This document shows positions 30,145 to 48,598 of a stretch of 53,963 bases of DNA, piece after piece. A program made the position numbers and the translations under genes. The stretch lies in the IMG/VR virus record IMGVR_UViG_3300020043_002749, positions 1 to 53,963 of that record; one strand, given 5' to 3'. This DNA is from a virus. Taxonomy: Duplodnaviria; Caudoviricetes. The notes below the pieces were generated by a model. It saw only the letters and a program-made list of their open reading frames with translations. It was not told the origin of the DNA and searched no databases. The number at the start of each line of letters is the position of its first letter. The first letter of the stretch is position 1.

Positions 30145-30156
30145 GGGCCTACCTAG

Positions 30157-34535: not shown

Positions 34536-34699
34536 TTTAAGCTGTCCCACCAATCTGTGTCATAATTTGCTTTGATGAACTCATATAGCTCTCTCACTGT
34601 AGGCTCGTCTAGGTCTACAATGTCCACGCTATTGTATTCTGGGTCTTTTTCTGTAACTACCAAAATTTCGTTAGCTGTTTTGTACCAACTGACTGTCAT
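34532..34699 (-). CDS. Hypothetical protein
   Basis: ATG 34699 with AGGAG RBS, overlapping the sigma gene end. Confidence 0.5.
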   Translation of the reverse strand: MTVSWYKTANEILVVTEKDPEYNSVDIVDLDEPTVRELYEFIKANYDTDWWDSLK

Positions 34700-35144
34700 T
34701 GTAACCACTCCTAAATCTTTGCACAATCTTTCGTGCATTACCAATATTAACACCTGTGAGGCTTGAGGTCTCTTCTAACGAGTAACCAAGGACTAAGTGA
34801 GACAATAGCACCTTACGATGCAACTTATTATCCACTTCCATAAGGATGTCTCGTAGCTCAGTGTCTTCGTAATAAGCGAAATCCTCTGAGTCTAGGTAAT
34901 CCACAATGTCTACTGTGAAAGGAGTACGCTTCAAAGATCGTTTATAATTCCACATCACTGAAAACAGGATGGAGTTAAACCAGCTTTTTAGCGCACCCTT
35001 GTTGCGGTCATACTGAGGAAACTTGTCCAGAGCTTTTGTAAAAGCTTCCTGAACCAGATCTTCTGCAATGTCATAGGTTCCAACATAGCGGTAGATTTTG
35101 TAGATGAAACCCTTTCGGTCTTTGTATAGATTTTCTAAGGTCAT
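34671..35144 (-). CDS. ECF-like RNA polymerase sigma factor
   Basis: Region 2 AEDLVQEAF...KSW; region 4 HTH GYSLEETSSLTGVNIGNAR. Confidence 0.85.
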   Translation of the reverse strand: MTLENLYKDRKGFIYKIYRYVGTYDIAEDLVQEAFTKALDKFPQYDRNKGALKSWFNSILFSVMWNYKRSLKRTPFTVDIVDYLDSEDFAYYEDTELRDILMEVDNKLHRKVLLSHLVLGYSLEETSSLTGVNIGNARKIVQRFRSGYNDSQLVQNS

Positions 35145-36844
35145 ACCTCTACAAACCTTCCTGTTTGTTTGTTATAGAACAACTGGTATTTACCAGAACT
35201 ACCCCACATACGATCTTCAAGAACACGGATTTCTCGTGTATTTCTAATTTCCTCTGGCAGGTCTGGGTCTTTATTACCAAGCAAGGCCAACATTAAATGG
35301 GCTGAACGCTGCATAGCACGAGAACCAGCAAACTGAGCAGAATACACCGACCCACCCATCTCGTGAGAACAATTCCCCAAATCGACATATTGTTCTTTCT
35401 TGTAGTAACTTTGTCGTTTATCCTCTGCGATCTGACCCTCTGGTGCCTTAAGGTGACAGAAGATGAAAGCAGTGAATTGCATGTCTTGTGCCATAGCTGA
35501 AAGCTCTTGCGAAAAAGCTTGTAGCAATGTATTAGCCTCACCAGAGTTGACACCATTAGACAACGAAGTGATAGGGTCAATAAAAACAGCCTTAGACCCT
35601 TGTTCAGCAGCTTCGGTGATATCCTTCTTTAAGGTCTCCCAGCCCAAATATTGATAAAGATTAAGCATGAATAACTTATCTCGCATGATGCTACCTGCAT
35701 GTTCGTAAGCATCTGCGTCAAATTTAATCTCTGGGTCATGGAAGATTTTACCTGTAAGTTGGTTAGCCAAGAGTTTGTAGGTAACGTCATTCGGTTCCTC
35801 TGGACATGCCATAAACACTTTTGCACCATGAGCAGCCATAAAGTGTGCTCCCAAAGCATTTTTCATGGTGGTCTTGCCCATTTTAGTTGCTGCACCAAGA
35901 TAGATAGTTTCCCCAAGACGAATGCCACGAAGGTCTTTGTTCATACGTTCCCAAGGCCAAGACAATTCACCAAACTTAGCAGGCTCCTTGGCCTTTTCAT
36001 GGATGTCAGCAGCCGTAACGATACGAGTGTTCTTAGGGGCCTCTGCATGGTAGGCTAGGGCATTGTACGCAGCCTTGGCCTTCCCCTCTAGGAGGGCTTG
36101 GTTGGCGTCCTTAGTGGGCAGTTTTACGGCCTTGGCAGAGGGAATGGCAAGCATCCCCTTTTCTACAGCAATCTTACCTGCTGCATCATCATCAAAACAA
36201 AAAATCACTTCCTTGAAAAGGCGACGAATATCCTCTGCATGTTTAGTCAAGGTCTTTTTGGCGGATGCGCTACCATGAGGTAAAGATACAACAGCGGGAG
36301 TGTAATTGACATCCCCATACATTTCATAAAGACGGTCCACCGATGCCATATCTTCTGGACCTTCGGTGACGATAAGACGATAAGCCCCGCTAACCTTAGC
36401 ATTTTCCCAGTTAAGGAGATCACAATCTCGTGTATCACCAATGTTGAATGGTGGGCAAGATTTATCCAAAATCTTTACGTGATATCCAGACAACTTGCCA
36501 GCTTTAGTGACGGGCCAGTAAATAGCAGATGGAGTTTTACCATCTGTCTCCGACACAGCTACCTTAGCCTGAAATTTGGCGAGAGTGCCAGCACGAAGTT
36601 TACGTGTAGGAATGTCTAAGGTTTGATATCCATCAACCTCTGCAATCTCTGCTGCAATATCGGCAGCAGATTTTTCTTTTCTTTTTGGTAGGTCATCTAC
36701 CGTTCTTCCGTCTCCATAAGGGTCTTTGACGGGAATGTGGCAGGCAAAGCAAAATGCGTCAACTGTCCCATCTTCTTGTGCAAAGACCTTTAAGGCCTTT
36801 TTTGTACCGCAACTGTGCGGCAGTTCATCAATCTGGATTCCCAT
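35141..36844 (-). CDS. Primase-helicase (T7 gp4-like)
   Basis: N-terminal Zn site (HSC...CFAC), TOPRIM (VTEG.ED, FDDD, KDAN), Walker A AATKMGKT, FIDP and GSRAM motifs. Confidence 0.92.
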   Translation of the reverse strand: MGIQIDELPHSCGTKKALKVFAQEDGTVDAFCFACHIPVKDPYGDGRTVDDLPKRKEKSAADIAAEIAEVDGYQTLDIPTRKLRAGTLAKFQAKVAVSETDGKTPSAIYWPVTKAGKLSGYHVKILDKSCPPFNIGDTRDCDLLNWENAKVSGAYRLIVTEGPEDMASVDRLYEMYGDVNYTPAVVSLPHGSASAKKTLTKHAEDIRRLFKEVIFCFDDDAAGKIAVEKGMLAIPSAKAVKLPTKDANQALLEGKAKAAYNALAYHAEAPKNTRIVTAADIHEKAKEPAKFGELSWPWERMNKDLRGIRLGETIYLGAATKMGKTTMKNALGAHFMAAHGAKVFMACPEEPNDVTYKLLANQLTGKIFHDPEIKFDADAYEHAGSIMRDKLFMLNLYQYLGWETLKKDITEAAEQGSKAVFIDPITSLSNGVNSGEANTLLQAFSQELSAMAQDMQFTAFIFCHLKAPEGQIAEDKRQSYYKKEQYVDLGNCSHEMGGSVYSAQFAGSRAMQRSAHLMLALLGNKDPDLPEEIRNTREIRVLEDRMWGSSGKYQLFYNKQTGRFVEV

Positions 36845-36852
36845 CTCACTCC

Positions 36853-37146
36853 TTACATATAATCCTCAATATTACCTAGGTTAAGTGGACCTAGTTCACT
36901 TTCCCTTACGCAAGTTTCTTCATAAACTTCGTCTTCAACAACAGATTCAATATCAAAATCTACGTGAAAAACTGTGTACGGGTACATCGCTTGCGTGAGA
37001 GGGTTAACAGAATGAACCCTTACCACATCTCCGGGCTTAAACTGATCTATAAAATCTTCTGATCCTTTTGTTGCGACACTTCCGTCGGCATGTTTACACC
37101 CAAGGAACTGTAAAATTTGCCCTTTTTGCCATCTACGATCAATCAT
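36853..37146 (-). CDS. Small KOW/SH3-like protein with C-terminal IEDYM tag
   Basis: FKPGDVVRV motif; ends NIEDYM*. Confidence 0.65.
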   Translation of the reverse strand: MIDRRWQKGQILQFLGCKHADGSVATKGSEDFIDQFKPGDVVRVHSVNPLTQAMYPYTVFHVDFDIESVVEDEVYEETCVRESELGPLNLGNIEDYM

Positions 37147-37385
37147 GCCCAGTCTTCCAATCTCCCGTCTGGGATGTAAGGGTCAAAATAGGAAAGGTTG
37201 ACTCCTACCCGTGAGTTTTTGTTACTTTTTGTCTGGTAGTGAAGAAAACCACTACTCCCGAATCCATCTTTGTTCTCTTCGCACCAAACAGGTTGAGATA
37301 AGTCTAAAACACCATTAAAGTATCTGGAGTAGTCCTCCGCAGCTTTTCCGGCCTTAGTTGGATTAAAAACGTAAAGGGATTTCAT
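37143..37385 (-). CDS. Small protein with C-terminal LEDWA tag
   Basis: YVFNP...DLSQP motif; ends RLEDWA*. Confidence 0.65.
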   Translation of the reverse strand: MKSLYVFNPTKAGKAAEDYSRYFNGVLDLSQPVWCEENKDGFGSSGFLHYQTKSNKNSRVGVNLSYFDPYIPDGRLEDWA

Positions 37386-37642
37386 AGCCAATCCTCCAAA
37401 TTCGTTTTAAGAACAAAATCAATGGGGAGGAGGTCTTCTTTGTAGATTCTGTAACGGTGATAGCCCCGTCTTTTGTTTTTCACTGTGTCCCACAAATAAC
37501 ACACCAAGCTTTGATCCCCCCTGTCATATTGCACTTGATACACTCGATCTGTACCACCTTTTCGGCGGTGCATATCATAAGGCAGATTACCATAACGGGG
37601 TTGTGTCGGATGCAGCTTTACTAGGCTCCCTGCTGGGTACAT
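37382..37642 (-). CDS. Small KOW/SH3-like protein with C-terminal LEDWL tag
   Basis: YPAGSLVKL motif; ends NLEDWL*. Confidence 0.65.
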   Translation of the reverse strand: MYPAGSLVKLHPTQPRYGNLPYDMHRRKGGTDRVYQVQYDRGDQSLVCYLWDTVKNKRRGYHRYRIYKEDLLPIDFVLKTNLEDWL

Positions 37643-38022
37643 TATGCAAAATCCTCTAACTTAAGTTTGAGAAAGTCCAATGGTCTTGATAGACGATCAA
37701 ATACCTCCTCTAAGAAGATAACCTCTTCTCTGCCTACACCATAATCACCACACACCCTGTCGTAACTTAGCCCCCCTGTTTTCCTGTGATATAAGGCCGC
37801 AAAAGCGTACCGTTGGATTTCAACGCCACTTCGTTTTAATAGGGACGTAGCACCAGACCAATCCAATTTAATAGTATAGTTCTCTGGTTGTTCCACAAAA
37901 GAGGAGAAGAAAGAAATGGCATCTTTCCCGTTTACCATGTCAAAGAATACCCCGTGTTCTCCACTTTGGCAAGCATTCATAAAAGCACCGACAGCTTTGT
38001 TTTTAGCTGCTTCATCTAACAT
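37642..38022 (-). CDS. Helical protein with C-terminal LEDFA tag
   Basis: Paralogous to 44289-44678; ends KLEDFA*. Confidence 0.65.
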   Translation of the reverse strand: MLDEAAKNKAVGAFMNACQSGEHGVFFDMVNGKDAISFFSSFVEQPENYTIKLDWSGATSLLKRSGVEIQRYAFAALYHRKTGGLSYDRVCGDYGVGREEVIFLEEVFDRLSRPLDFLKLKLEDFA

Positions 38023-38264
38023 TACATGTAATCCTCAATTTTTTCGAAGGTGTTGGATACAAGTTCAATTTCATTGGCCCGAAAAGCGGAAAGCAACAGT
38101 TTTTCAAACAGACACCCCATTGGGTACCTGTGAGAGGGAGTTATAGACATCACCTTTCCAACCTCTCCAATATGTCTGTTCTCCCCTGCGTGATCTACCG
38201 AAAGACCTTCTGAGTCTTTTATTCCCAGAAATCTTACATAATCACCTACCTTAATATGGTTCAT
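38022..38264 (-). CDS. Small KOW/SH3-like protein with C-terminal IEDYM tag
   Basis: IKVGDYVRF motif; ends KIEDYM*. Confidence 0.65.
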   Translation of the reverse strand: MNHIKVGDYVRFLGIKDSEGLSVDHAGENRHIGEVGKVMSITPSHRYPMGCLFEKLLLSAFRANEIELVSNTFEKIEDYM

Positions 38265-38276
38265 ATGGCACCTTTG

Positions 38277-39122
38277 TCAAGATGAGAAGAGGTTTTTATT
38301 TTTGTTGAAGATGTTCAGGTCAACCACATTCCAATCACGAGAGTAGATGGCGTACTGGATATTTCTCACCCCAGTTCGAATTTTACTCTCAGTTGCATAT
38401 TGTCCAAAGACCTTGTAATGTGGACCAAGCAGATCACGAGCAAAAGCTTCAAAACCACGTTCACTTGCTTGTCCGAGAAGGTCTGTAGGGTTGGGGAGAG
38501 TTTTAGCAAACTCTTTTACATAGTTCAATGCCCCTGCCCAAGCTTTAATCTTGTCAAAATCTGTCGTAGATTCCAACGCACGAAACTCCACAGAGCCATA
38601 TTTGAACAAACTGGTAATGTTTAAGCTGGCATAACGAAGGTCTTCTGTGTCCAAAGTCTTAAGAGAGTTGGTCAGGATCATCTCCGTGATCATGTCAAGC
38701 GTATAACTTGCATCAGACATACGCAGACAGAAGTGATTCCCAGTACGGGTTTTGTCACAGAATGATAGGAACACTTCCTCCAATACAAAGTAGGCTGCGA
38801 TAAAGGTGACCAACTGCTTGGGGGTGAGGTCTTGCACGTTAACGTGTACGTGAACACCTGCACGGTAGGTGGGACGAACCTTGGTCTTAGAGTTTTTCAT
38901 AGCACCAGTGAGTTCGTTAAAAGCCTCTGTCAACTTATCCTCGTTAAGAGGTTGACGTAACACAAACTCCCCACTTTCCCCACGAAGAGAGGCGTCTCGC
39001 TCAAGACGCCAATGATTTGATACAGCCTCTGCGGGAGGCAAATTGTCTGCCTCAATTTCAATCTCAACTCCGAGGCTGCCCTCTTGCTTGCGGCAAGGGA
39101 TAAGGTCTGCGATTTTAGCCAT
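38277..39122 (-). CDS. Putative amidoligase (glutamine synthetase/GCS-like fold)
   Basis: GVEIEIE, DASL...EF, GVHVHV, RYASLN and SVEFR motifs. Confidence 0.85.
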   Translation of the reverse strand: MAKIADLIPCRKQEGSLGVEIEIEADNLPPAEAVSNHWRLERDASLRGESGEFVLRQPLNEDKLTEAFNELTGAMKNSKTKVRPTYRAGVHVHVNVQDLTPKQLVTFIAAYFVLEEVFLSFCDKTRTGNHFCLRMSDASYTLDMITEMILTNSLKTLDTEDLRYASLNITSLFKYGSVEFRALESTTDFDKIKAWAGALNYVKEFAKTLPNPTDLLGQASERGFEAFARDLLGPHYKVFGQYATESKIRTGVRNIQYAIYSRDWNVVDLNIFNKNKNLFSS

Positions 39123-39687
39123 TGTAATATCCTACAACTTCTGCAAGGTGCTGTTCAAGAAAGAATTTATCTGGGTTAAGGACCAGACGGCCTTCGATAA
39201 GTTTTCCCACCTCATACTTACGGTACACAAGAAGGGTTTCTTCCCCCCTGCTTGCCAAACCGAAGTCTCTTGAAAAAGCCATCGAACGGTTTTTTGTTTT
39301 CTTCAGGTAAGAGATGCAGTCTGCTAGGCTGGGGTAGTTATTCATAACGGTTTTGGTCAAACTGCGAAGACCAATATCCCTTTTGTCGGAGCCGTACACA
39401 ACAAGGCTGTTAAGTGAGAGACCTTGCTTCCAATCTTTACGCATAGGTTTGCGACAAGCAAAGACCATCTTTCCATTGTAGTTAACAAACCCCAACTTTA
39501 CAGGGGTTAAGTCAAGTTGAGAGAGGGGTAAGGTTTCTGTGACCTCTAAGGCCATGTCAGTACCAAAACAGACCATCACCTTACTTTCAACACTCACTTG
39601 ATCTACAATAAACGGGTGACCATCACTCTTTCTGATCAAAGTTCCTTCTAAACGTTTTTTGGCATATTCGAGATCATCGTCATACAT
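39115..39687 (-). CDS. Hypothetical protein of the amidoligase cluster
   Basis: LGFVN...R.P.RK.WKQGL motif; lies between the two ligase genes. Confidence 0.65.
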   Translation of the reverse strand: MYDDDLEYAKKRLEGTLIRKSDGHPFIVDQVSVESKVMVCFGTDMALEVTETLPLSQLDLTPVKLGFVNYNGKMVFACRKPMRKDWKQGLSLNSLVVYGSDKRDIGLRSLTKTVMNNYPSLADCISYLKKTKNRSMAFSRDFGLASRGEETLLVYRKYEVGKLIEGRLVLNPDKFFLEQHLAEVVGYYNG

Positions 39688-40529
39688 TATACTGCCTCAC
39701 GATAGTGCTTCGGAGATTTGATGTTGCCATAGTTGAAAGCAAAGATAGCCGCCGAGTTCCACTTTTCATCTGTTTTGGAGATGATGTCACGGGCGGTAAG
39801 ACCATAGAACTGAGTGTCACCAACATCGGGGTTATCAAAAGTGGCTTTGATAGCGTCCATCGTATTGAAATAGACCAGTTTACGGAGGTGAGGTTGGGTA
39901 ATCCACTTGTTGCTAAGGACTCGATACTCCATGCCGTACGGCTTGGGACGGAATGCACCAGCAGCACCGTACAAAGAACGACGACGGTCATCATTATCCC
40001 AAGCAAGGGAGGGGATGCCAAGGTAAACGTCAAGGGCTTTGGTCAGGGCACGACAAGCTTCGAGGTGCCCTTCGTTATTGATGTCAACCGCCTCTGTGGT
40101 CCAACCGATATGAACGTGACCGGATGCAGTACGGAAGGGAGTGTCTGCATTGGGGCGTGGGTTCGCCATTTTCGTGTAAGCATTGAAGTCGGGAGAGCAA
40201 CCAAGCTCACTCGCCTCTTTCGGCTGTGATTGGATATATTCCAAGCCAAAGTCAGCAACGGGTTCCACAAAGACCTCATAGCCGGGGATCATGCCCATAA
40301 TGCTGTCCATCACAGTGGTCATATTGTCTTCAAACTGAGTGTAGTCGTTGGCCGGATCGATGTTGAACTCCAAAGCCATGCCATCCACTTGTACAGCGCC
40401 TTTAGGCACTTTGAACGGGGCCTCTTTGGTGCCGGGGATAAGGCCATGTGCAGAATGCAACTTGCCAAACTTTTTGACGAAGAACTCCGGGTCAGCGCCA
40501 ATCTTGAACTCAATGCCGTTGATTTTCAT
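39687..40529 (-). CDS. phiEco32-like COOH-NH2 ligase type 2
   Basis: GADPEFF, QVDGMALEFN, GCSPDFNAY, SGHVHIG and RRSLYG.AG.FR.KPYGMEYRVLSN motifs. Confidence 0.88.
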   Translation of the reverse strand: MKINGIEFKIGADPEFFVKKFGKLHSAHGLIPGTKEAPFKVPKGAVQVDGMALEFNIDPANDYTQFEDNMTTVMDSIMGMIPGYEVFVEPVADFGLEYIQSQPKEASELGCSPDFNAYTKMANPRPNADTPFRTASGHVHIGWTTEAVDINNEGHLEACRALTKALDVYLGIPSLAWDNDDRRRSLYGAAGAFRPKPYGMEYRVLSNKWITQPHLRKLVYFNTMDAIKATFDNPDVGDTQFYGLTARDIISKTDEKWNSAAIFAFNYGNIKSPKHYREAV

Positions 40530-40538
40530 GTTGTATCC

Positions 40539-41918
40539 TTACGCGATTTTGGTTTTGTGGTTTTTGATCATGTCTTCTACATAAGAGATGTCTTTGCACT
40601 CTTTGCAAAAGAAGAAGTTTTGGTCCAGCCAAACAACTTCAGCTCGGTCTTCCCAAGTTGGAACAGTGTAGCAGCATTGGCAACCTTCCTCAGTGCGTTT
40701 CTCATAGGCGCTGCGAGTCAGATACACTGACTTATCGTGCCAAGGTGCGAAGTCACTGAGTTGCTCTTGCTTTCGGATTTGGAATCCTTTGTTGTCAAGA
40801 CGAACAACATCAACATCGTCCTTAAGTTTGATGAAGTTCATCTCTCCCCAGTTACACCAGAATTGTGTTGGGTCTTGAGTATTACGGAACACTTTGCGAG
40901 CAAAGAAGAACCCCTTCTCCCCCTCTTTGGTAAGACGCTCTTTTGCGGCTTTGTACATTGGAAGGGGGATAATCACCCTTACCGCAGCGCCAGAGGCTAG
41001 GTGACCAAAAGCAGCAGGAGCGTTAGGAATATCGTGAAACTCTGTCACGATTAGTTGTTCACCCGTGTTCTGATTAGGTTTTACAACAGGCTTATCTACC
41101 TTTGGTTTTTCGTCTCCCCAATCGTTTCTCCAATCGTCCCAATCTCTTTGATGGAAGAAGTTTGACCGGAAGTACGTAGGCTTTGCGACGAAAGGGGGCA
41201 CAGTGGTCTCCGTATGGTGGATTTCTCCTTTCTCATACAGTTCAAATGTGTAGAGGGTGTTAGGTTTGACCTCCACAATGTCGTTAGTCGCAAGACTATT
41301 ACGACCAGCCGCAATGACAAGCATCCAACTTTCTGATGCCCACATTATCCCCTTATTGTCTTTGGAGTAGACCAAGAACAGAGGTCTTTGTGAATTACGA
41401 ATGATGTGGAACTTTTTTGTTACTTTGTCCCACCAAGTTAAGGCCAACGCTCCATCAGCGTCTTTCCAAACCTCTTTGATGTCTTGAGTGTGGGAAAGGT
41501 GCGAATAGATGATTTGAGAGTCCACATCATAGTCATCGTAACCATGAAACTTTTTAATCGAGGACATGCTGACGGTACCATTGTGAGCACCTACAACATT
41601 ATCAAACTCAAAGGGGTGAGCATTCTCAACATTGATTTTACCTTGCGTGGCAAAGCGATTATGACCAATATAGAGATTGACATTCCTAAACGTCAACGAA
41701 CGACCACGAGTTGCTTTGTTGTGTTCGTAGAACAGCTCGGAGGCACCACCAACACTCTTAAACAACTCTACCTCTGGCTTATCCCCAAAGGCATTTGAGA
41801 TTGCTGCTACCCCTGTTGAGTCTTCTCCTCGGAGAACATCAAGGTACAGCATGTCGTGAAAAGCTTTCTTCAAGTTTTCAGTGACGGGATTTCCAAATAC
41901 GCCAACAAGTCCACACAA
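40539..41918 (-). CDS. Class II (Ntn) glutamine amidotransferase
   Basis: N-terminal (M)CGLVG, RGEDSTG, GHNRFAT, NAHPF, HNGT and VDS motifs; C-terminal Cys cluster. Confidence 0.9.
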   Translation of the reverse strand: MCGLVGVFGNPVTENLKKAFHDMLYLDVLRGEDSTGVAAISNAFGDKPEVELFKSVGGASELFYEHNKATRGRSLTFRNVNLYIGHNRFATQGKINVENAHPFEFDNVVGAHNGTVSMSSIKKFHGYDDYDVDSQIIYSHLSHTQDIKEVWKDADGALALTWWDKVTKKFHIIRNSQRPLFLVYSKDNKGIMWASESWMLVIAAGRNSLATNDIVEVKPNTLYTFELYEKGEIHHTETTVPPFVAKPTYFRSNFFHQRDWDDWRNDWGDEKPKVDKPVVKPNQNTGEQLIVTEFHDIPNAPAAFGHLASGAAVRVIIPLPMYKAAKERLTKEGEKGFFFARKVFRNTQDPTQFWCNWGEMNFIKLKDDVDVVRLDNKGFQIRKQEQLSDFAPWHDKSVYLTRSAYEKRTEEGCQCCYTVPTWEDRAEVVWLDQNFFFCKECKDISYVEDMIKNHKTKIA

Positions 41919-41929
41919 ATTAGCTCTCC

Positions 41930-42550
41930 TTACAGACCAAGAAAGGTTTCTAGATATTCAAAGTATTTGACACGACAGGGATGATCTACTCCACAATACT
42001 CTGGGTGGGGTTGATAGCACAGGCAGTCCGTAGCTGGGTAATAGAGGGCCTCTACGTCAGGGGTAATGCCACCTAGCTCCTGTGTCTCAAAGCCCTGCTT
42101 AACCTCAGCACAGGAAGCGGAGAGCAATAACATTGCCCCTTCTCCTGCAATCATCATTTGGTGATGGGTAGATGTGACCGCTACATCTTCCTGATTGATA
42201 TGGTCAAAAGCAGAATGAGTGCGACCAATAGCATGGTTTGTGACATGCTGCCACATACTCCCCTTGTTCATCACATTTAGGAACTGTGCCCCACGGCAAA
42301 TACCCGCCATAGGTACTTTGTTAGAGAATTGTAGGTAGATTGCTGCTTCTCGTGCATCACGAGCTGGGTTGGAGTGGGTAGCTGGATGCTTGCGCTCATT
42401 GTAATAGGAAGGGTCAACATCTTCTCCACCAGTAAACTGGATAAGATCAAAGCCAGTCTCAAGTGGATTATGTGTTACATCCCACCCCTCTTCGATGAAC
42501 ATACGCGCAATACCATAGTCCAACCCAACCACTAGGACTTTCTTACGCAT
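41930..42550 (-). CDS. Class I glutamine amidotransferase-like, PuuD/peptidase C26 gamma-glutamyl hydrolase
   Basis: TGGEDVDP..Y, RD..E, GICRGAQ, HHQ and QPHPE motifs. Confidence 0.88.
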   Translation of the reverse strand: MRKKVLVVGLDYGIARMFIEEGWDVTHNPLETGFDLIQFTGGEDVDPSYYNERKHPATHSNPARDAREAAIYLQFSNKVPMAGICRGAQFLNVMNKGSMWQHVTNHAIGRTHSAFDHINQEDVAVTSTHHQMMIAGEGAMLLLSASCAEVKQGFETQELGGITPDVEALYYPATDCLCYQPHPEYCGVDHPCRVKYFEYLETFLGL

Positions 42551-43409
42551 GGTGAATCCGTTCCAATGCTTGTTCCAGAACATTTTTGAAATCTTCTGGG
42601 GAGTTGATCGTATAACCCTTGACAGGGGCTTTCTCAAAGATATTGTAGTTCTTAGCAGCCGTGACTACTTTGGGCTGAATGCCACGCATCCAATCAGAAA
42701 AGGAGTCCTTGCTCCCCCCTTTAGACCACATAGCTGTCACAGAGTCCGTATAACCGGAGTTTTCCTTAAACGTCTCCTTCTTGAGGTTTTCTGGGGTGTT
42801 GTTCAGGAAATTGCGGTAGTAGGCTTCATTTGCATAGCTCAACTCGAATGGGCTGTGACCCGAAGATAGTCGTGCATACTGCAAGGGATAAAGCTTTTTA
42901 CCACTGCTGTGAGCCTTGTTATAAGAGGCCGAGAAGATATAGGCCTCTGCATGAGAGAATCCAAGACGAAGGATTTCTTCGTAAATCGGGAGGCGGGCGC
43001 AAACACTGTCTGTGTACTTCTCCGTAATGTTACGTGTTGCAATCAAAGCACTGGCGACAAAGTTAGCCGGGTATTCTGCACTGACCACCCAACCAAACTT
43101 CTTAATATCTTCCACATCTTTGGTGAGAAAGACAACAGCCCAAGGACTTTCGTTTGCCAACCAACGAATGTACTCGTCAGCAAAAGCTTGAGAGCTGAGA
43201 ATTGGCATAACCCATGATAGGATATACTTCACTTTGTAGGTCAGTTTTCCCTCCAACTGATATTTTTGCAAAGCTCCGTGGCAAGGCCCCCCACCAAGCA
43301 GACGGTAGAACCCACTGTCTTCAACCACTGCAATGTATGCGTTAGAGGAGCCTTTGTTAGTCTTGGCGTCCTTGGCAAATTGCGTTCTTACCTTCTCAAG
43401 TTCTTTCAT
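42543..43409 (-). CDS. Hypothetical protein of the ligase cluster (288 aa)
   Basis: ATG 43409 with AGGT RBS; aromatic-rich; no family recognised. Confidence 0.65.
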   Translation of the reverse strand: MKELEKVRTQFAKDAKTNKGSSNAYIAVVEDSGFYRLLGGGPCHGALQKYQLEGKLTYKVKYILSWVMPILSSQAFADEYIRWLANESPWAVVFLTKDVEDIKKFGWVVSAEYPANFVASALIATRNITEKYTDSVCARLPIYEEILRLGFSHAEAYIFSASYNKAHSSGKKLYPLQYARLSSGHSPFELSYANEAYYRNFLNNTPENLKKETFKENSGYTDSVTAMWSKGGSKDSFSDWMRGIQPKVVTAAKNYNIFEKAPVKGYTINSPEDFKNVLEQALERIHHA

Positions 43410-43416
43410 ATCGCAC

Positions 43417-44292
43417 CTATACGAGGATGGCTTCGTCGGACAAGGCCGGATGGATAAACTTCTTCCAACCGCCCAGATTTTCTGTAATACCAATCGTCTG
43501 TTTCCCGTGTTCAATCAGGTAGTCAAAACACTTAGCCATGCACTCCTGACGATAAGGAGAAGTTTGAGAGGGGGCAGAGTTGATTTCAAGGACGTAGGCA
43601 TTGCCCTCTGCGTCAACCATTACATCAACAGCCCCGAAGTCAAGTCCAGACAGCATAAAGGCTTCATAACTGATACGAACAGCTTTGAGGGGCCATTCGT
43701 CCCAACGAACATTGTCGAAGCGACCGCCACGGGCCACGTTCCATGCAACATCTTGGGGATTGCCCGGAGTTTTCTTGGCAATCCAACATACACGGCCTTG
43801 AACGAAGGTAACACGATACTCAGCCACCTTGGGAATGTATTCAGAGGCATACCAACCTTCACCACAACGTTGGATTGCTGCGTTTAGTTCCGCTACATTG
43901 TTGCACAGATAAACATGTTTACCTTGTGCATGGACGCGAGGACGCACAACAATCTTATCGTGGAAGAGAAGCAGTTCTTCTTGTGGAACATCTCCTTCTA
44001 GATAAGTCTTTGGACACAATGGACCCTTGCGGGGCGCGCCCTGATCTCCCCAAGTCTCCATCAACAAACTACGAAATCCAGCCTTATCGCCTACACGATG
44101 GATAGCCTCTGCCGTATTGACTACATTACGTGCGGGAACATTGCTAGTGGTCCCCCAACGAATGACAAGATCAACATCAGCGGGCATAGGCTGGTCATTA
44201 CGAACAACCAGATCAATCTTGTTAGAGAAAGCTGTGATTTCTTTACAGCTTGTACGGCCAAGTTTACGACGACGAAGCATTGCTACAGTCAT
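43417..44292 (-). CDS. ATP-grasp ligase (RimK-like)
   Basis: IRWG, DK, EYI...EYRV, WN...GG, GLDFGAVD and VLEINSAPS motifs. Confidence 0.9.
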   Translation of the reverse strand: MTVAMLRRRKLGRTSCKEITAFSNKIDLVVRNDQPMPADVDLVIRWGTTSNVPARNVVNTAEAIHRVGDKAGFRSLLMETWGDQGAPRKGPLCPKTYLEGDVPQEELLLFHDKIVVRPRVHAQGKHVYLCNNVAELNAAIQRCGEGWYASEYIPKVAEYRVTFVQGRVCWIAKKTPGNPQDVAWNVARGGRFDNVRWDEWPLKAVRISYEAFMLSGLDFGAVDVMVDAEGNAYVLEINSAPSQTSPYRQECMAKCFDYLIEHGKQTIGITENLGGWKKFIHPALSDEAILV

Positions 44293-44678
44293 TTGTAGTC
44301 CTCCAGTTTTTGTTTGGTGAAGTCGATTGGGTGGGCAAGACGATTAAACACTTGGTCAATGAAGTCTAGTTCTTCTTGCGTAACCTCTTCGAAAAACTCG
44401 AAATCCATGTCCATGTTAGGATTACCGCCAGCACGTTCATAAAAAGTTCCAAAGGCATCGTCAGAAAGATGGACTCCACCCTTTATAACCTGTTTAGCGG
44501 CTTTGCTCCAATTGAGGTGACTGTTGTACAACTCCGGGTATTTTGTTGCAGCTAAAAACAACTCAAATACACTTTTATACTTGTCTTGTGCATTAAAGAA
44601 TAGGTCGTTGTCTTCCTCCCAACCGTCGATGAAAGCCTTGACGGCCCTATTTACGGCGTCTTCTGTGAACTCTGTCAT
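44289..44678 (-). CDS. Helical protein with C-terminal LEDYK tag
   Basis: Ends VFNRLAHPIDFTKQKLEDYK*. Confidence 0.65.
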   Translation of the reverse strand: MTEFTEDAVNRAVKAFIDGWEEDNDLFFNAQDKYKSVFELFLAATKYPELYNSHLNWSKAAKQVIKGGVHLSDDAFGTFYERAGGNPNMDMDFEFFEEVTQEELDFIDQVFNRLAHPIDFTKQKLEDYK

Positions 44679-45013
44679 AGATAGTCCTCTAACTTTTGTG
44701 ACAAGCCCTCTTTAGCTAGGGTCATAAACACAGTTTGCAGAAATTGTTGTTTTTCACTGGCCTTGTCCATTTTGTCTCGATAATTTGCAAAATCTGACGA
44801 GGTTAGGAGTATTCCTAATCTCTCTAATTTGTCGCAAATGTGCGCCCACCAAAGAGAGTGAAAAATGCTAGGTGGTGAACTCAGTGCGGTTGAAAACACC
44901 TCTTGATAAGATTTGCACCTTTCTCTGGAGCTGTAAGAGTAGGCGCTACCATTTTTGGTCCACTCATTCTTAAAGAATGCCACTGTTAAGCTTACTTGTT
45001 TTGGTGTGTACAT
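44675..45013 (-). CDS. Helical protein with C-terminal LEDYL tag
   Basis: Ends FLQTVFMTLAKEGLSQKLEDYL*. Confidence 0.6.
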   Translation of the reverse strand: MYTPKQVSLTVAFFKNEWTKNGSAYSYSSRERCKSYQEVFSTALSSPPSIFHSLWWAHICDKLERLGILLTSSDFANYRDKMDKASEKQQFLQTVFMTLAKEGLSQKLEDYL

Positions 45014-45026
45014 CACAACCCCCAAA

Positions 45027-45098
45027 AAATATTTATTTTTTCAGACCCCTTGACAAGCCTTCGTTTTTGACTATATATAACTAGGGGTTTAAAAATTA
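45027..45098 (+). promoter_or_regulatory. 72-bp promoter-like element, copy 2
   Basis: AT-rich tract, TTGACA at 45050-45055 and TATATA at 45072-45077; inverted near-copy of 12470-12541. Confidence 0.7.
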
Positions 45099-45494
45099 CC
45101 TGTCCCAGTAATAATACTTATTATTGTTATAGTCTATGGTATTACATAGTGGTCTACCATTAACCCACTCATTCATCTCATAGATCATAACATCCTCTTC
45201 TCGTTGAAGAGCAGGAAGAAGGACACGAATGGTGTCGCGTTTGTACCAAACAGGATGACCTTCCAAACTGTCACAGGCACTAAGATGCTTATCATTGATC
45301 TCAAATACCTCCCCCATGATAGGAAGCATGGGAAACAACTCTTCGTCTTTCGTGAATGTTACAGCCTTCGGAAAGCCGCAGTTAAAGAGTGCATACTTTT
45401 TCTCCGTAAAAGCTTCCCCAAGGAAAGAGGCTCCACGCAGTAGTGCGTTATTACCATACCCAAGTTTAAGGGTGCCATATACCATAAGTTTCAT
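45096..45494 (-). CDS. Gamma-glutamyl cyclotransferase (AIG2-like)
   Basis: VYGTLK, GEVFE and D.LEGHP..YKR motifs. Confidence 0.88.
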   Translation of the reverse strand: MKLMVYGTLKLGYGNNALLRGASFLGEAFTEKKYALFNCGFPKAVTFTKDEELFPMLPIMGEVFEINDKHLSACDSLEGHPVWYKRDTIRVLLPALQREEDVMIYEMNEWVNGRPLCNTIDYNNNKYYYWDR

Positions 45495-45721
45495 GCGAAA
45501 TCCTCAAGAGTTTGGGTTGGGTCAATATATTGACAGAAGAGGGACAAGTCAGGGCCTGCCGCCATTTTTCCTTCTAAGTTGTCGTGACAAACTTCCCACC
45601 CATTAATGATAAAGACACTATCTAGTGGAAGTTTGTATCTACGACACCAAGACCTCCACCAATCATTGTAGTGTTGAGGCTTTCTTGTGACTAAAGTCCC
45701 ATTAGGAAAAGGTTGGCTCAT
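45491..45721 (-). CDS. Small KOW/SH3-like protein with C-terminal LEDFA tag
   Basis: FPNGTLVTRK motif; ends QTLEDFA*. Confidence 0.65.
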   Translation of the reverse strand: MSQPFPNGTLVTRKPQHYNDWWRSWCRRYKLPLDSVFIINGWEVCHDNLEGKMAAGPDLSLFCQYIDPTQTLEDFA

Positions 45722-45730
45722 GTGTTGTCC

Positions 45731-46012
45731 TCACACGTTAGGGGGAAGTGCAAAACTCTGGAAGTGTTCCCCATTAGCCTGAATGCAAGACAACCCTTGT
45801 GCATCAGTAGAGAGCAAAGTGAAAGTCCCCGTCTCTGGATTCACAAACACCTCCAATAGGATACCACCAACATCCATTCCCACGAATGCAAGAAACTCCT
45901 TGTAGTCGTTTTCAAGGTAGGAATAAACCTGTTCACTTGGCCCACAGTTAATGTTTTGGGCAACAGATGTGGTAGCAAAAAGGGAGAGGGCAATTGCGAC
46001 AAGAGCTTTCAT
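45731..46012 (-). CDS. Secreted protein with signal peptide
   Basis: MKALVAIALSLFATTSVA-Q signal; two Cys; EVFVN.ETGTFT...G.SC resembles small Rhodobacterales periplasmic proteins. Confidence 0.65.
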   Translation of the reverse strand: MKALVAIALSLFATTSVAQNINCGPSEQVYSYLENDYKEFLAFVGMDVGGILLEVFVNPETGTFTLLSTDAQGLSCIQANGEHFQSFALPPNV

Positions 46013-46021
46013 TTTATTCTC

Positions 46022-46288
46022 CTACATAAAGTCCTCTAAGGACTGGTTGATGTTTATAGGTTTGAAGCAGTGGGTAACGAGATGTTTGCTTTCTCCTGCA
46101 CGATACCCCGTGTCAAAGATAAGGTGGAGGGAATATTTATCAGGTCTTCCATAAAGAGGGGGTTCAAACTTGACAAACTTAGCGGGACGAGTTAGGTCAA
46201 TGCTATTAGCTCTGGCCCAATTAATGTGGGAATCGTAGTCTGCTTGATGGGTAACCCTACAAGATGGGTCGAAAATCCATTCTTCCAT
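46022..46288 (-). CDS. Small protein with C-terminal LEDFM tag
   Basis: WIFDP...DLTRP motif; ends QSLEDFM*. Confidence 0.65.
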   Translation of the reverse strand: MEEWIFDPSCRVTHQADYDSHINWARANSIDLTRPAKFVKFEPPLYGRPDKYSLHLIFDTGYRAGESKHLVTHCFKPININQSLEDFM

Positions 46289-46294
46289 ATTTCC

Positions 46295-46522
46295 TCACAC
46301 ATAATCGGAGAGGTTACCCTCTACAACACAAAGATCAAAGACCCCCCAATCTACAGAAGTTACCACATCTTCCATCATTTTTAGTCCTACGTTATTACCA
46401 CGACCAAAACCTTTTTCAAAAGGTTTATTTAGGTCTACTTTTCTGTCTTTTGCCCAACTCTCATACGCTTCCAAAAGGCTGAGTTTTGCTGCCTTACCTT
46501 TGTTGAACTTATAAAATTCCAT
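46295..46522 (-). CDS. Small protein with C-terminal LSDYV tag
   Basis: ATG 46522 after AGGTGG; YKFN...DLNKP motif; ends NLSDYV*. Confidence 0.65.
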   Translation of the reverse strand: MEFYKFNKGKAAKLSLLEAYESWAKDRKVDLNKPFEKGFGRGNNVGLKMMEDVVTSVDWGVFDLCVVEGNLSDYV

Positions 46523-46540
46523 TATCCACCTGTAAAAGAA

Positions 46541-46617
46541 TGGCCTGCCCGGAGGGACTCGAACCCCCAACATACGAGGTAGAAGCTCGTTGTTCTATCC
46601 AGTTGAACTACGGACAG
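46541..46617 (-). tRNA. tRNA-Arg (UCU)
   Basis: Cloverleaf with acceptor CTGTCCG/CGGGCAG, anticodon arm ACGAG-CTTCTAC-CTCGT, TTCGAGT T-loop, A20 and encoded CCA. Confidence 0.92.
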
Positions 46618-46626
46618 GTAATTAGG

Positions 46627-47034
46627 TTACATCAGGCCTGCTGCTTCAAGGGCCTTATAGGCGACAAGAACCTCTGGATAGCCAAAAGCTGCTACCCAAT
46701 AGAAGGGATTGAACAAGTCAAGAATCACTTCCACTACAAGTGGGACGGTGATAAGGGTCAGCACAACTCCGGCAAAACCACGAGGAAATCCTTGATTAGG
46801 GTCACTCCAGTCCTTACAGGATTTAGCCCATTTAATCCATATCTTCAAAAAAATGATTAATACCACTGAAATCACAGAGGCAAGGATAAGTTTCTGTGTG
46901 GCTTCCATTCGATACACGAACAAACCAAGCTCTACAGCATCAGGGCCGTATTCTTTCGTAGCATCCACTAGAGATTGTGTGACAGTGGCAAGAACAGAGG
47001 AAAGGCTTTTGTCCACAAGAGCCTCAGTGTTCAT
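46627..47034 (-). CDS. Membrane protein
   Basis: Two hydrophobic segments. Confidence 0.6.
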   Translation of the reverse strand: MNTEALVDKSLSSVLATVTQSLVDATKEYGPDAVELGLFVYRMEATQKLILASVISVVLIIFLKIWIKWAKSCKDWSDPNQGFPRGFAGVVLTLITVPLVVEVILDLFNPFYWVAAFGYPEVLVAYKALEAAGLM

Positions 47035-47143
47035 TTTTCTTCTCCTTCTTTTTCATAGCTGCAATAGCAATGTCTTCCCAATCGACAAAAGAACGTGTGA
47101 TAGGAACAACAGGAGGGGGAGGGGTAACGGGTGCAGAAATCAT
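47024..47143 (-). CDS. Small Pro-rich basic peptide (MISAPVTPPPP...)
   Basis: ATGA-coupled to the upstream stop, with GAGGA RBS. Confidence 0.4.
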   Translation of the reverse strand: MISAPVTPPPPVVPITRSFVDWEDIAIAAMKKKEKKNEH

Positions 47144-47358
47144 AAATAATCCTCTAAGTTGGTTGACAGTTCTTTGGGGCAGGGGGTTTGGAAAAAGGAT
47201 TGCCACCACCTCGCGGATGAGCCGGAAACTGCAATGTCCTCATCAAGATACACGTGCGTAATTTGAACGGGAGTTGATCCGACTTTATGCCAAAACGGGT
47301 GATCAAGGTGCTCCTTCTTTCTCACCACCCAATCCCCTACCTTGAATCTATGTGTCAT
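47140..47358 (-). CDS. Small KOW/SH3-like protein with C-terminal LEDYL tag
   Basis: FKVGDWVVRK motif; ends NLEDYL*. Confidence 0.7.
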   Translation of the reverse strand: MTHRFKVGDWVVRKKEHLDHPFWHKVGSTPVQITHVYLDEDIAVSGSSARWWQSFFQTPCPKELSTNLEDYL

Positions 47359-47579
47359 AGGTAGTCCTCCAGATTACCACTAATAGGTTGGCAAGGAAGG
47401 AATCTCGAACTCCAAAAAATTGCCTTGTCCCCAAGCTCGGCTAACGTCAGCGACCCGCCAAGAGGGCTAACACTTACAACCGTAAGTGGTTGATCCCCTC
47501 TAGAGAAGAACTCAGGCCAACCTGCACGAAAATCAGGGTGACGAATAACTAAGTCTCCCACCTTGAATTGATGTGGCAT
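47355..47579 (-). CDS. Small KOW/SH3-like protein with C-terminal LEDYL tag
   Basis: ATG 47579 after GGAGGAG; FKVGDLVIRH motif; ends NLEDYL*. Confidence 0.7.
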   Translation of the reverse strand: MPHQFKVGDLVIRHPDFRAGWPEFFSRGDQPLTVVSVSPLGGSLTLAELGDKAIFWSSRFLPCQPISGNLEDYL

Positions 47580-47600: not shown

Positions 47601-47677
47601 TGGTGCGGACGGTCGGACTTGAACCGACAGCTTAGGGAGTTTAAGTCCCCTGCGTTTACCTCTTTCGCCACGCCCGC
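47601..47677 (-). tRNA. tRNA-Leu (UAA), short variable loop
   Basis: Acceptor GCGGGCG/CGTCCGC, anticodon arm GGGGA-CTTAAAC-TCCCT, 5-nt variable region, TTCAAGT T-loop, A73 and CCA. Confidence 0.88.
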
Positions 47678-47982: not shown

Positions 47983-48191
47983 CCCCTCGCCCCCCGTAGG
48001 GAGATTTGGTCAATCTGCCCTTGGATGGTGTTAGCATCCCCACGGGCAGACACTTTCTGTTGGTGGAGAGAGGCACGATATTCACGGTTTTCAGCCGTTC
48101 GTGCCTGCTTACGTTTATTACGTTCCAAAGAACGCCCGATGTTCAAGGGGGAACGACCAGCTTTGGAAGCGGAAGGCCAATTGTAGTGCAT
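47979..48191 (-). CDS. Small basic protein
   Basis: ATG 48191 after AAGGAG; Arg/Lys-rich. Confidence 0.55.
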   Translation of the reverse strand: MHYNWPSASKAGRSPLNIGRSLERNKRKQARTAENREYRASLHQQKVSARGDANTIQGQIDQISLRGARG

Positions 48192-48287
48192 GTTATTCTC
48201 CTTAGAAACGAGGAAAGACGTGAAAGAGGGCTGTCCCAATGATCCACCCAAAGATGAACCATACAACAAAATCTGTTGCGAAGTCCA

Positions 48288-48587
48288 TTATTTACCTTTC
48301 TGATTTTGATGATAGGAAGGTTTGGCCGCTGCGATGGCGGCGCGGCTAGCTTTTTCTGCAAAACGCGGAAATTCGCGGTATGCCTGATCGCCTCGTGTGG
48401 AAATTGCCCGTGATCTGATATGCTCCAACGCCTCCACCAGCCGCGCAATCACGGCGTCGCGGGGGTCGGGCTGCGGGTCTATGGCGGGGATTGCGGTCAT
48501 ATCTTGTTCCAGACGCCACTCAATACCGTACGACACAAATGACTTAGCTACGGTTAGCGCATCCTCACGGCGGATCAGGTCAGTCAT
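48288..48587 (-). CDS. Hypothetical protein (MTDLIRREDAL...)
   Basis: AAGGAG RBS; common phage N-terminal motif. Confidence 0.55.
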   Translation of the reverse strand: MTDLIRREDALTVAKSFVSYGIEWRLEQDMTAIPAIDPQPDPRDAVIARLVEALEHIRSRAISTRGDQAYREFPRFAEKASRAAIAAAKPSYHQNQKGK

Positions 48588-48598
48588 TTGTGGCTCCT

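What the first reader, a model, noticed from the sequence alone, without database searches (positions are those of the whole stretch)
36853..47579. Twelve small proteins from three families share a C-terminal LED[YFW]x tag and flank the peptide-ligase cluster
Seen: 12 ORFs end in [LI]-[ES]-D-[YFW]-x-stop. Array 1: IEDYM (36853), LEDWA (37143), LEDWL (37382), LEDFA (37642), IEDYM (38022). Array 2: LEDYK (44289), LEDYL (44675), LEDFA (45491), LEDFM (46022), LSDYV (46295), LEDYL (47140), LEDYL (47355). The tag is often preceded by P-[IL]-[DN]. The bodies fall into three dissimilar groups: KOW/SH3-like (FKVGD.V type), DL..P type, and helical. I saw no other gene in the window ending this way. The two arrays bracket the amidoligase/COOH-NH2 ligase/GATase/ATP-grasp genes, and the GGCT gene sits inside array 2. 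Caveat: the E-D codons (GAG GAY) double as the Shine-Dalgarno of the next gene in most cases. This does not explain everything: the aromatic residue uses five different codons, one copy uses GAA GAC and one TCC GAT, three copies have a separate RBS at or after the stop, and other coupled genes end differently (MMEEPK, RMEES, SGGRP). Established: RimK- and LysX-type ATP-grasp ligases act on acidic C-terminal tails. Inference: the tag is a shared recognition signal. It may mark diverse small adaptor/effector proteins as substrates of the ligase cluster, or dock them onto one hub protein. A DNA-level cassette-exchange boundary is a weaker alternative.
Basis: partly seen in the sequence, partly recalled or inferred. 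Interest (0 to 1): 0.9.

Follow-up and report, generated by a model that had tools for sequence, protein, structure and literature searches.

The report
Shared C-terminal tail on early phage proteins
A dozen unrelated small early proteins of this marine phage, and many relatives in metagenomes, end in the same short acidic-aromatic tail (L-E-D-Y/W-L/M), which looks like a common address label whose reader is still unknown.

Summary
Exactly 12 of 3648 stop-to-stop ORFs in this 53,963-bp phage contig end in [LI][ES]D[YFW]x, at the stated places, where about 0.009 would be expected by chance.

Four related IMG/VR phages carry 10-15 such tails each, on the coding strand only. Of the 113 short metagenomic relatives of the SH3-like body, 86 carry the tail.

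The tail is selected at the protein level. Leu uses six codons and Ser uses both codon families. Junctions with their own ribosome-binding site keep L-[DE]-[DE]-[YW]-[ML] while dropping GAGGA (3 of 20, against 32 of 42 overlapping junctions). The Shine-Dalgarno is therefore a codon choice laid onto the tail, not its cause.

The tails sit on at least two confirmed folds, an SH3-like barrel and an all-alpha body. In both models the tail is a low-confidence appendage.

The link to the ligase cluster is not supported. All eight cluster genes occur in tail-less relatives, and the ATP-grasp is 55-76% identical throughout. All tails lie transcriptionally upstream of the phage sigma gene.

Best reading: a shared docking or addressing peptide for early proteins, with an unidentified reader.

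The parts
47355..47579 (-). tailed small gene, SH3-like body, ends GNLEDYL; overlaps the next start (ATGA)
   Evidence: start set by tRNA-Leu at 47601-47677
47140..47358 (-). tailed small gene (72 aa), SH3-like barrel, ends STNLEDYL
   Evidence: homologues P0002 and P0003 keep the tail; AF2 model, tail pLDDT 57-61; fold hits KOW/Tudor/Mib and phage nucleotide-kinase N-domains
46295..46522 (-). tailed small gene, ends GNLSDYV (TCC GAT, no GAGGA); own RBS after the stop
   Evidence: start set by tRNA-Arg at 46541-46617
46022..46288 (-). tailed small gene (88 aa), ends QSLEDFM; own RBS after the stop
45491..45721 (-). tailed small gene (76 aa), SH3-like, ends QTLEDFA; overlaps the GGACT start
44675..45025 (-). 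tailed small gene (about 116 aa), ends QKLEDYL; start codon uncertain
44289..44678 (-). tailed all-alpha gene (129 aa), ends KQKLEDYK; overlaps the ATP-grasp start
   Evidence: 4 homologues keep KLEDY[KL]; AF2 tail 117-129 has pLDDT below 50
38022..38264 (-). tailed small gene (80 aa), ends EKIEDYM
   Evidence: weak SH3_15 hit, E 0.22
37642..38022 (-). tailed all-alpha gene (126 aa), paralogue of 44289-44678, ends LKLEDFA
37382..37642 (-). tailed small gene (86 aa), ends TNLEDWL
37143..37385 (-). tailed small gene (80 aa), ends GRLEDWA (GAA GAC)
36853..37146 (-). tailed small gene (97 aa), ends GNIEDYM; own RBS before the primase-helicase gene
38277..39122 (-). Amidoligase_2 gene (context, not shown to read the tail)
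   Evidence: E 5e-14
39115..39687 (-). conserved cluster gene of unknown function (190 aa, phrog_11055)
39687..40529 (-). phiEco32-like COOH-NH2 ligase gene
   Evidence: E 1.4e-9
40539..41918 (-). class-II glutamine amidotransferase gene with a long C-terminal extension
41930..42637 (-). Peptidase_C26 / class-I GATase-like gene (start uncertain)
   Evidence: E 1.7e-18
42543..43514 (-). conserved cluster gene of unknown function (likely start near residue 36)
43417..44292 (-). ATP-grasp ligase gene (RimK/TTL Pfam hits)
45096..45494 (-). gamma-glutamyl cyclotransferase (GGACT) gene inside array 2
   Evidence: E 1.2e-14
46541..46617 (-). tRNA-Arg(TCT) inside array 2
47601..47677 (-). tRNA-Leu(TAA) at the upstream end of array 2
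35141..36844 (-). primase-helicase gene directly downstream of array 1
34671..35144 (-). phage sigma factor gene; no tail lies transcriptionally downstream of it

Best explanation
The tail K/T-x-L-[ED]-[DE]-[YWF]-[LM]-COOH is a short linear motif under selection as a peptide. It is a flexible C-terminal appendage with one helical turn, attached to many unrelated small cytoplasmic proteins. These proteins are encoded in the operon segment upstream of the phage sigma gene, so they are presumably early, host-takeover proteins. I read the tail as a common docking or addressing peptide that brings this whole cohort to one reader. In this arrangement many clients compete for one hub, as clamp-binding tails do. 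Because the tail is kept across very divergent phages, I think a conserved host machine or a core phage protein is more likely than the adjacent ligase cluster. The two acidic codons are written as GAG GAN wherever the next gene overlaps the stop, so the same bases also serve as its Shine-Dalgarno. Shown: that the motif is real, where it occurs, that selection is on the peptide, that the bases are dual-coding, and that the tail is predicted to be disordered.
For: Chance is excluded: 12 ends observed against 0.009 expected.

The tail is conserved in four related phages. There are 62 tail-like ends in five genomes and 0 on the opposite strands of those loci. Two complete relatives carry 12 of 110 and 14 of 108 ORF calls with the tail, all in the same region.

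Selection acts on the peptide. Leu is coded by CTA 23, TTA 16, TTG 11, CTT 6, CTG 3 and CTC 1. Ser at position -6 uses both TCN and AGY. The last residue is Met in 34 of 62. GAGGA occurs in 32 of 42 overlapping junctions but only 3 of 20 separate ones (Fisher p 6.7e-6), and the peptide is kept in both. Nucleotide identity among tails is only 1-4 points above a synonymous-recoding null.

Coupling does not require the tail. Eleven overlapped junctions in the window with an internal SD end differently.

The tail is more conserved than the bodies. Homologues at 41-56% identity keep STNLEDY/W. Paralogues at 35% identity share the C-terminal block.

The tail is widespread. The profile search gave 377 hits; of the top 150, 113 are 100 aa or shorter, and 86 of those carry the tail.

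The bodies are diverse: 32 groups unlinked by BLAST, including an SH3-like barrel and an all-alpha body. In both models the tail has the lowest confidence and a short helix over LEDY.

A sister phage (G003) carries a different shared tail, KEE[DE]ML-like, on 6 coding-strand ORFs and 0 on the other strand.

None of the 38 tails in the three complete tailed genomes lies downstream of the sigma gene.
Against: No reader has been identified, and no binding, stability or modification data exist. No phage gene tracks the presence of the tail. The host is unknown, so host hubs could not be tested. Twelve clients competing for one site is unusual for a phage. The tail matches no known docking motif that I tested. 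Early timing is inferred from gene order only, because the promoter scan was at chance level. The tail statistics for the 86 metagenomic proteins use a pattern that itself restricts positions -5 to -2.
Confidence: 0.55

Rival explanations
1. The tails mark the proteins as substrates or carriers for the co-transcribed ligase cluster. The ATP-grasp, amidoligase or COOH-NH2 ligase would modify the C-terminus or the acidic side chains, as RimK does on S6, TTL on tubulin, or LysX on LysW.
For: In all five tailed genomes the arrays flank the cluster. The ATP-grasp has RimK and TTL Pfam hits. LysW carries a C-terminal EDWGE motif read by the ATP-grasp LysX (passages of PMC10433800), and E-D-W occurs in 16 of 62 tails. 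The sister phage with the variant acidic tail also has the cluster.
Against: All eight cluster genes occur in relatives without tails: L005, L010-L015 and RIO-1 (0 of 28 annotated CDS there). The ATP-grasp is 55-76% identical with many invariant residues across tailed and tail-less phages, which suggests one common substrate. Only 1 of 62 tails ends in Glu, 0 of 62 in EE or EDWGE, and 0 of 12 ATP-grasps carry GSWGR. Twelve diverse carriers for one pathway would be odd.
Confidence: 0.12
2. The tail is a shared C-terminal degron. A host or phage protease or adaptor recognises it, so that the early proteins are cleared once their synthesis stops.
For: The tail sits at the extreme C-terminus, ends in a hydrophobic residue and is predicted to be disordered. 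It is confined to genes upstream of the sigma gene. The two untailed small ORFs inside the arrays (45731-46012, 46627-47034) look secreted or membrane-bound by eye, so they would be out of reach of cytoplasmic proteases. That C-terminal degrons exist in bacteria is recalled, not tested here.
Against: 0 of 62 tails end in the ssrA-like AA. Acidic residues near the end stabilise proteins in E. coli studies (recalled). No protease is encoded near the arrays in the Pfam scans I ran.
Confidence: 0.15
3. The nascent heptapeptide acts in cis on the ribosome at the stop codon. It slows termination and so favours re-initiation at the overlapping or nearby start.
For: 42 of 62 tails sit on overlapping stop-start junctions, and most of the rest have a start within about 15 nt. 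The conserved stretch of about 7 residues is the length that lies near the peptidyl-transferase centre (recalled).
Against: Eleven overlapped junctions in the same operon lack the tail. At least one tail is followed by about 90 nt with no start (phage A, ending SLEEYL). The flavour of the tail differs between phages (TSLEEYM, KPLEDWM), which a conserved ribosome would not demand.
Confidence: 0.07
4. The tail is only a by-product of DNA-level constraints: either the Shine-Dalgarno and start context, or a recombination boundary for swapping gene cassettes.
For: GAGGA lies in the tail at 32 of 42 overlapping junctions. The content of the arrays is almost wholly different between related phages, while the flanking core genes are 50-85% identical.
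Against: 17 of 20 separate junctions keep the peptide without GAGGA. Leu and Ser switch between codon families. Nucleotide identity exceeds the synonymous-recoding null by only 1-4 points, with z from 0.8 to 3.2, and the mean identical run is 5-6 nt. SDs inside other genes fall in all three frames.
Confidence: 0.05

Closest known systems
Clamp-binding C-terminal motifs (bacterial beta-clamp QL[SD]LF; tails of T4 gp45 clients). Recalled, not taken from a call.
   Same: A short peptide, often at the extreme C-terminus, shared by many unrelated client proteins that compete for one hub.
   Different: 0 of 62 tails fit QL[SD]LF or QLxLx[LF]. The hub here is unknown. The phage encodes no clamp in the Pfam scans I ran.
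Acidic C-terminal tails of SSB (DDDIPF) and of T7 gp2.5 and gp4. Titles and abstracts of PMC10359462 and PMC10573954 were seen in listings; the details are recalled.
   Same: An acidic stretch followed by an aromatic or hydrophobic end with a free carboxylate, which mediates protein-protein docking. This phage's own gp2.5-like candidate (30157-30867) ends in DTDDENW.
   Different: In those systems one hub protein carries the tail and the clients carry the pockets. Here 12 or more clients carry the tail. 0 of 62 end in [IL]PF.
LysW/ArgW EDWGE tail, read by the ATP-grasp LysX/ArgX through its GSWGR motif (passages of PMC10433800)
   Same: An E-D-W tripeptide close to the C-terminus of a small protein, encoded next to an ATP-grasp ligase.
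   Different: LysW ends in the Glu that gets modified and has a zinc-finger body. Here 1 of 62 tails ends in Glu, the bodies are SH3-like or helical, and 0 of 12 ATP-grasps carry GSWGR.
RimK on ribosomal protein S6, and tubulin-tyrosine ligase on the EE(Y) end of tubulin. Recalled; supported here only by the Pfam hits.
   Same: ATP-grasp ligases that act on acidic protein C-termini.
   Different: 0 of 62 tails end in EE or in [ED][ED][YF]. The phage enzyme is equally conserved in tail-less phages.
C-terminal degrons (ssrA LAA) and the HbYX penultimate-Tyr motif of proteasome activators. Recalled.
   Same: Extreme C-terminal peptides whose last residues and carboxylate are read by a protease or ring complex. 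A penultimate Tyr occurs in 43 of 62 tails.
   Different: 0 of 62 end in AA. Only 1 of 62 has a hydrophobic residue before the Tyr.

Membership tests
Shine-Dalgarno / translational-coupling element | GGAGG-like bases 5-10 nt upstream of the next start codon | tested here: met
   GAGGA lies in the tail at 32 of 42 overlapping junctions. It is absent from 17 of 20 junctions that have their own RBS, and those still keep the peptide. The element is real but does not define the tail.
LysW-type amino-group carrier tail | C-terminal EDWGE ending in the modified Glu | tested here: not met
   0 of 62 tails are EDWGE and 1 of 62 ends in E.
LysW-type amino-group carrier tail | partner ATP-grasp carries the GSWGR recognition motif | tested here: not met
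   0 of 12 phage ATP-grasp sequences contain GSWGR or G.WG..
RimK / TTL substrates | C-terminus ends in Glu-Glu or in [ED][ED][YF] | tested here: not met
   0 of 62 for each pattern.
Beta-clamp-binding motif | QL[SD]LF or QLxLx[LF] | tested here: not met
   0 of 62 within the last 12 residues.
SSB-Ct-like tail | ends in [IL]-P-F | tested here: not met
   0 of 62.
ssrA-like ClpX degron | ends in Ala-Ala | tested here: not met
   0 of 62.
HbYX motif | hydrophobic residue, then Tyr, then any residue at the C-terminus | tested here: not met
   Penultimate Tyr in 43 of 62, but a hydrophobic residue before it in only 1 of 62.
PDZ class III ligand ([DE]-x-hydrophobic-COOH; the class definition is recalled) | pattern at the last three residues, plus a PDZ-domain reader | tested here: inconclusive
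   The pattern fits 54 of 62 tails. No PDZ or TPR family appeared in any Pfam scan of window proteins. The host could not be tested.
SH3-like / KOW / Tudor beta-barrel (body of one group of tailed proteins) | small five-stranded barrel fold | tested here: inconclusive
   AF2 core pLDDT is 77-90. The best PDB hits (Kin17 KOW, Mind bomb, Tudor, uL24) have TM 0.5-0.62 but E of 0.09 or worse. In BFVD the best hit has E 9e-4, and the hits include N-domains of phage nucleotide kinases. There was no Pfam hit.

The most novel reading that the evidence does not exclude
The tail is a phage-wide address label that hands the whole cohort of early effectors to a single enzyme or machine. The boldest version that the evidence does not exclude is that the co-transcribed amidoligase / COOH-NH2 ligase / ATP-grasp / GGACT set reversibly modifies the tails. 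That would be a phage counterpart of tubulin tyrosination, pupylation or LysW carriage, and it would switch a dozen effectors on or off together. The KEE[DE]ML tail of the sister phage and the basic KKRKIV tail on homologous bodies would then be alternative labels.
Probability: 0.12. Interest if true: 0.9.

Novelty: new variant of a known kind. Interest (0 to 1): 0.74.

Why it matters
Most early phage genes are small ORFans with no handle for study. Here one 5-7-residue peptide is shared by about 12-15 of them per genome, and by at least 86 protein clusters (50% identity) in metagenomes.

The locus is also a clean natural case of dual coding. The same bases serve as an acidic pair in a peptide motif and as the next gene's ribosome-binding site, and the codon choice switches with the type of junction.

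My full-text searches for the pentapeptides and for shared C-terminal motifs on phage early proteins found nothing relevant in print.

Tried and rejected
Complex prediction. I folded the ATP-grasp (alignment A2) with ATP, Mg and the 72-aa tailed protein (A1). The result was 'no answer' (score 0.00, mark 0.32), so it counts neither for nor against binding.

IMG/VR pattern scan. It returned 10 stretches. Multiple hits fell only in the four relatives already known. The 6 single hits look like chance.

Metagenome pattern scan. Of the 80 loci returned, 7 have one tail-like end and 0 have two or more, which is chance level. Tail arrays without a cluster could therefore not be sought from the tail side.

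The search for related loci with the SH3-like alignment. The smaller A3 matched 185 stretches, of which 0 were confirmed.

Family searches. Pfam and PHROGs found nothing for any of the 10 tailed proteins submitted to both (47140 and 47355 were scanned in PHROGs only).

ESM Atlas for the two unknown cluster genes gave only low-confidence neighbours.

The promoter scan was at chance level: 21 sites found against 22 expected.

Cluster look-up of 10 tailed relatives: all are metagenomic and unnamed.

Cultured phages show only weak matches of the body to N-domains of T7-like 'nucleotide kinases'. The ATP-grasp has only distant cultured relatives, such as RIO-1 and HP1.

Searching for a reader gene by presence and absence found none.

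Iyer et al. 2009 (PMC3268129) is not held. What I say about it rests on a citing passage in PMC10580990 and on recall. Supplements were not consulted.

Full report
WHAT THE WINDOW IS. The window is a whole 53,963-bp virus record. Its minus strand carries one long run of genes from about 50.7 kb down to 21.5 kb. In transcription order these are:
- small ORFs and two tRNAs (tRNA-Leu(TAA) at 47601-47677 and tRNA-Arg(TCT) at 46541-46617);
- a GGACT gene, an ATP-grasp, an unknown gene, Peptidase_C26, a class-II GATase, a COOH-NH2 ligase, an unknown gene and Amidoligase_2;
- more small ORFs;
- a primase-helicase, a sigma factor and PolA;
- a gp2.5-like candidate, FEN, a metallophosphatase, ThyX, a MazG-like gene, an RNR containing an intein, and PhoH.
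The same layout, with cluster, primase-helicase, sigma and PolA in that order, is annotated in Pseudoalteromonas phage RIO-1 of the Zobellviridae. The closest relatives are uncultured.

THE OBSERVATION. Exactly 12 of 3648 stop-to-stop ORFs end in [LI][ES]D[YFW]x. From the amino-acid composition of the 96 ORF calls, 0.009 such ends are expected (P = 4e-34). Twelve of the 15 occurrences of the four-residue core in predicted proteins are C-terminal.

CONSERVATION IN RELATIVES. I fetched loci around homologues of the amidoligase and the ATP-grasp. Four phages have 10-15 such ends each: contigs 3300021440_000021 (A), 3300020045_002701 (B), 3300005989_000005 (C) and 3300016664_000047 (D). None lies on the opposite strand of those loci. 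Each phage has its own flavour of tail: TSLEEYM in A, K[PS]LEDW[ML] in B, K[ES]L[ED][DE]Y[LM] in C. Paralogues that my first pattern missed carry near-variants (LEGYM, LDQYM, LERYM, LEQYL, LEYYL). In the two complete relatives the tails are confined to the same region: 12 of 110 ORF calls in A and 14 of 108 in C.

PEPTIDE OR NUCLEOTIDES? I examined 62 tail-like ends from the five genomes.
- Leu at position -5 uses six codons (CTA 23, TTA 16, TTG 11, CTT 6, CTG 3, CTC 1).
- Ser at position -6 uses both TCN and AGY.
- The aromatic residue is Tyr 43, Trp 16, Phe 3.
- The last residue is Met in 34 and Leu in 21.
- Where the next start overlaps the stop, the two acidic codons read GAGGA in 32 of 42 cases. 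Where the next gene has its own RBS after the stop, they read GAGGA in 3 of 20 (Fisher p = 6.7e-6). In those 20 they are written GAA GAT, GAC GAA, GAT GAC, TCA GAA and so on, and the peptide L-[DE]-[DE]-[YW]-[ML] is kept.
Within each genome, the nucleotide identity of the last seven codons exceeds a synonymous-recoding null by only 1-4 percentage points (z 0.8-3.2). In the window, 11 other overlapped junctions with an SD inside the upstream gene end in unrelated peptides, with the SD in other frames. So the peptide is what is selected, and the SD is laid onto it by codon choice. The SD need probably explains why E-D is preferred over D-D at coupled junctions.

BREADTH. Homologues of the 72-aa protein at 41-56% identity keep STNLEDY/W. 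Four homologues of the 129-aa helical protein keep KLEDY[KL]. Its 35%-identical paralogue in array 1 shares the block VF.RL..P.DF.K.KLED[FY]. A profile of the SH3-like group found 377 proteins (E at most 1e-3) among 1.84 billion representatives. I looked at the top 150.
- 113 are 100 aa or shorter, and 86 of those carry the tail.
- Most of the remaining 27 carry near-variants (FREEDYL, three ending YKEWL). Four carry a basic tail instead (KNKKRKIV and similar).
- Of the 37 longer proteins, which include repeats of the domain and fusions, one matches the pattern, which I take as chance.
Ten clusters that I looked up are all metagenomic and unnamed.

BODIES AND TAILS. With tails removed, BLAST leaves 32 unlinked groups, not counting two spurious ones. 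One group is an SH3-like barrel. Its AF2 core has pLDDT 77-90, and its neighbours are KOW, Tudor and Mind-bomb domains and the N-domains of phage nucleotide-kinase and SaV-like proteins. Another group is all-alpha (mean pLDDT 64). In both models the tail is the least confident part (57-61, and below 50) and forms one helical turn over LEDY. That is the usual appearance of a short linear motif on a flexible linker.

THE LIGASE LINK. All eight cluster genes occur in tailed and tail-less genomes alike. L005, L010-L015 and RIO-1 show no recurrent tail. The ATP-grasp is 55-76% identical with many invariant residues across all 12 phages. Known signatures of ATP-grasp substrate tails are absent. Only a 74-aa ORF is shared by the three complete tailed genomes and missing from the closest genome without this tail, G003. 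G003 does carry its own shared tail, [FY][FY]..[DE]E[DE]ML-like, on 6 coding-strand ORFs and 0 on the other strand, coded GAA GAA GAN. So lineage-specific acidic-hydrophobic tails are a wider habit of this phage group. In W, A, C and G003 every tail lies transcriptionally upstream of the sigma gene. Tails and cluster may therefore simply share the pre-sigma, presumably early, expression class. That timing is an inference.

VERDICT. The tail is a peptide-level signal shared by unrelated early proteins, with an embedded SD. I favour a common docking or addressing role (0.55). Lower odds go to a degron (0.15), a ligase substrate (0.12), a cis effect on termination and re-initiation (0.07) and a purely DNA-level origin (0.05). 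My full-text searches found nothing on this motif.

Noticed in passing
G003 (contig of L009): 27667-28427, 30044-30322, 36824-37697, minus strand: The closest phage without the LEDY tail has its own shared C-terminal tail on six small ORFs: FFDKEEDML, YYEKEEEML, FFETEEEMLR, WFYEKEEECL, YFDREEDLYE and YFTDDEEYFLKE. None occurs on the other strand, and the acidic codons are GAA GAA GAN.
   Followed up: partly
P0058, P0138, P0139, P0109: Homologues of the SH3-like body carry a basic tail (KNKKRKIV, KNSKKRIV, KRVKRRIV, SPKKKIG) in place of the acidic one. This suggests that tails can be swapped between bodies.
   Followed up: no
P0004, P0005, P0015, P0019, P0033: The same SH3-like domain occurs as tandem repeats in large proteins, with up to 18 matched stretches in 2448 aa. 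It is also fused upstream of a SaV-like or nucleotide-kinase-like domain. None of these proteins has the tail.
   Followed up: no
window 21497-23980 (-): The ribonucleotide reductase gene is interrupted by an intein that contains an HNH endonuclease (Pfam Intein_splicing and HNH_3).
   Followed up: no
window 24183-27440 (-): A group of nucleotide-metabolism genes lies here: MazG-like PRA-PH, a PHROG DNA methyltransferase-like ORF, ThyX, and a dATP/dGTP diphosphohydrolase N-domain protein (PF18909). Together they could point to non-canonical base metabolism. I did not look for PurZ.
   Followed up: no
window 30157-30867 (-): This 236-aa protein (phrog_862) sits where RIO-1 annotates an SSB. It ends in an acidic tail with a terminal Trp (DTDDENW), like the T7 gp2.5 type.
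   Followed up: no
window 46541-46617 and 47601-47677 (-): tRNA-Arg(TCT) and tRNA-Leu(TAA) lie inside array 2. TTA is the second commonest Leu codon of the tails (16 of 62).
   Followed up: no
window 45731-46012 and 46627-47034 (-): These are the only two small ORFs inside the arrays that lack the tail. By eye they look like a signal-peptide protein and a membrane protein. The first is conserved in A, C and G003.
   Followed up: no
window 48000-52000: This segment has a higher G+C content (0.50-0.52 against about 0.44), mixed gene orientation and almost no homologues in the related phages.
   Followed up: no
L039 (RIO-1) 7446-7733 and 13194-13448: Two RIO-1 proteins share a C-terminal block, IGIPSLEGK[VI]F. 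This may be another shared tail in a more distant relative.
   Followed up: no
window 28105-28461 and 20645-21358 (-): A YAcAr SLOG-family protein and a PhoH-like ATPase are encoded in the replication module.
   Followed up: no
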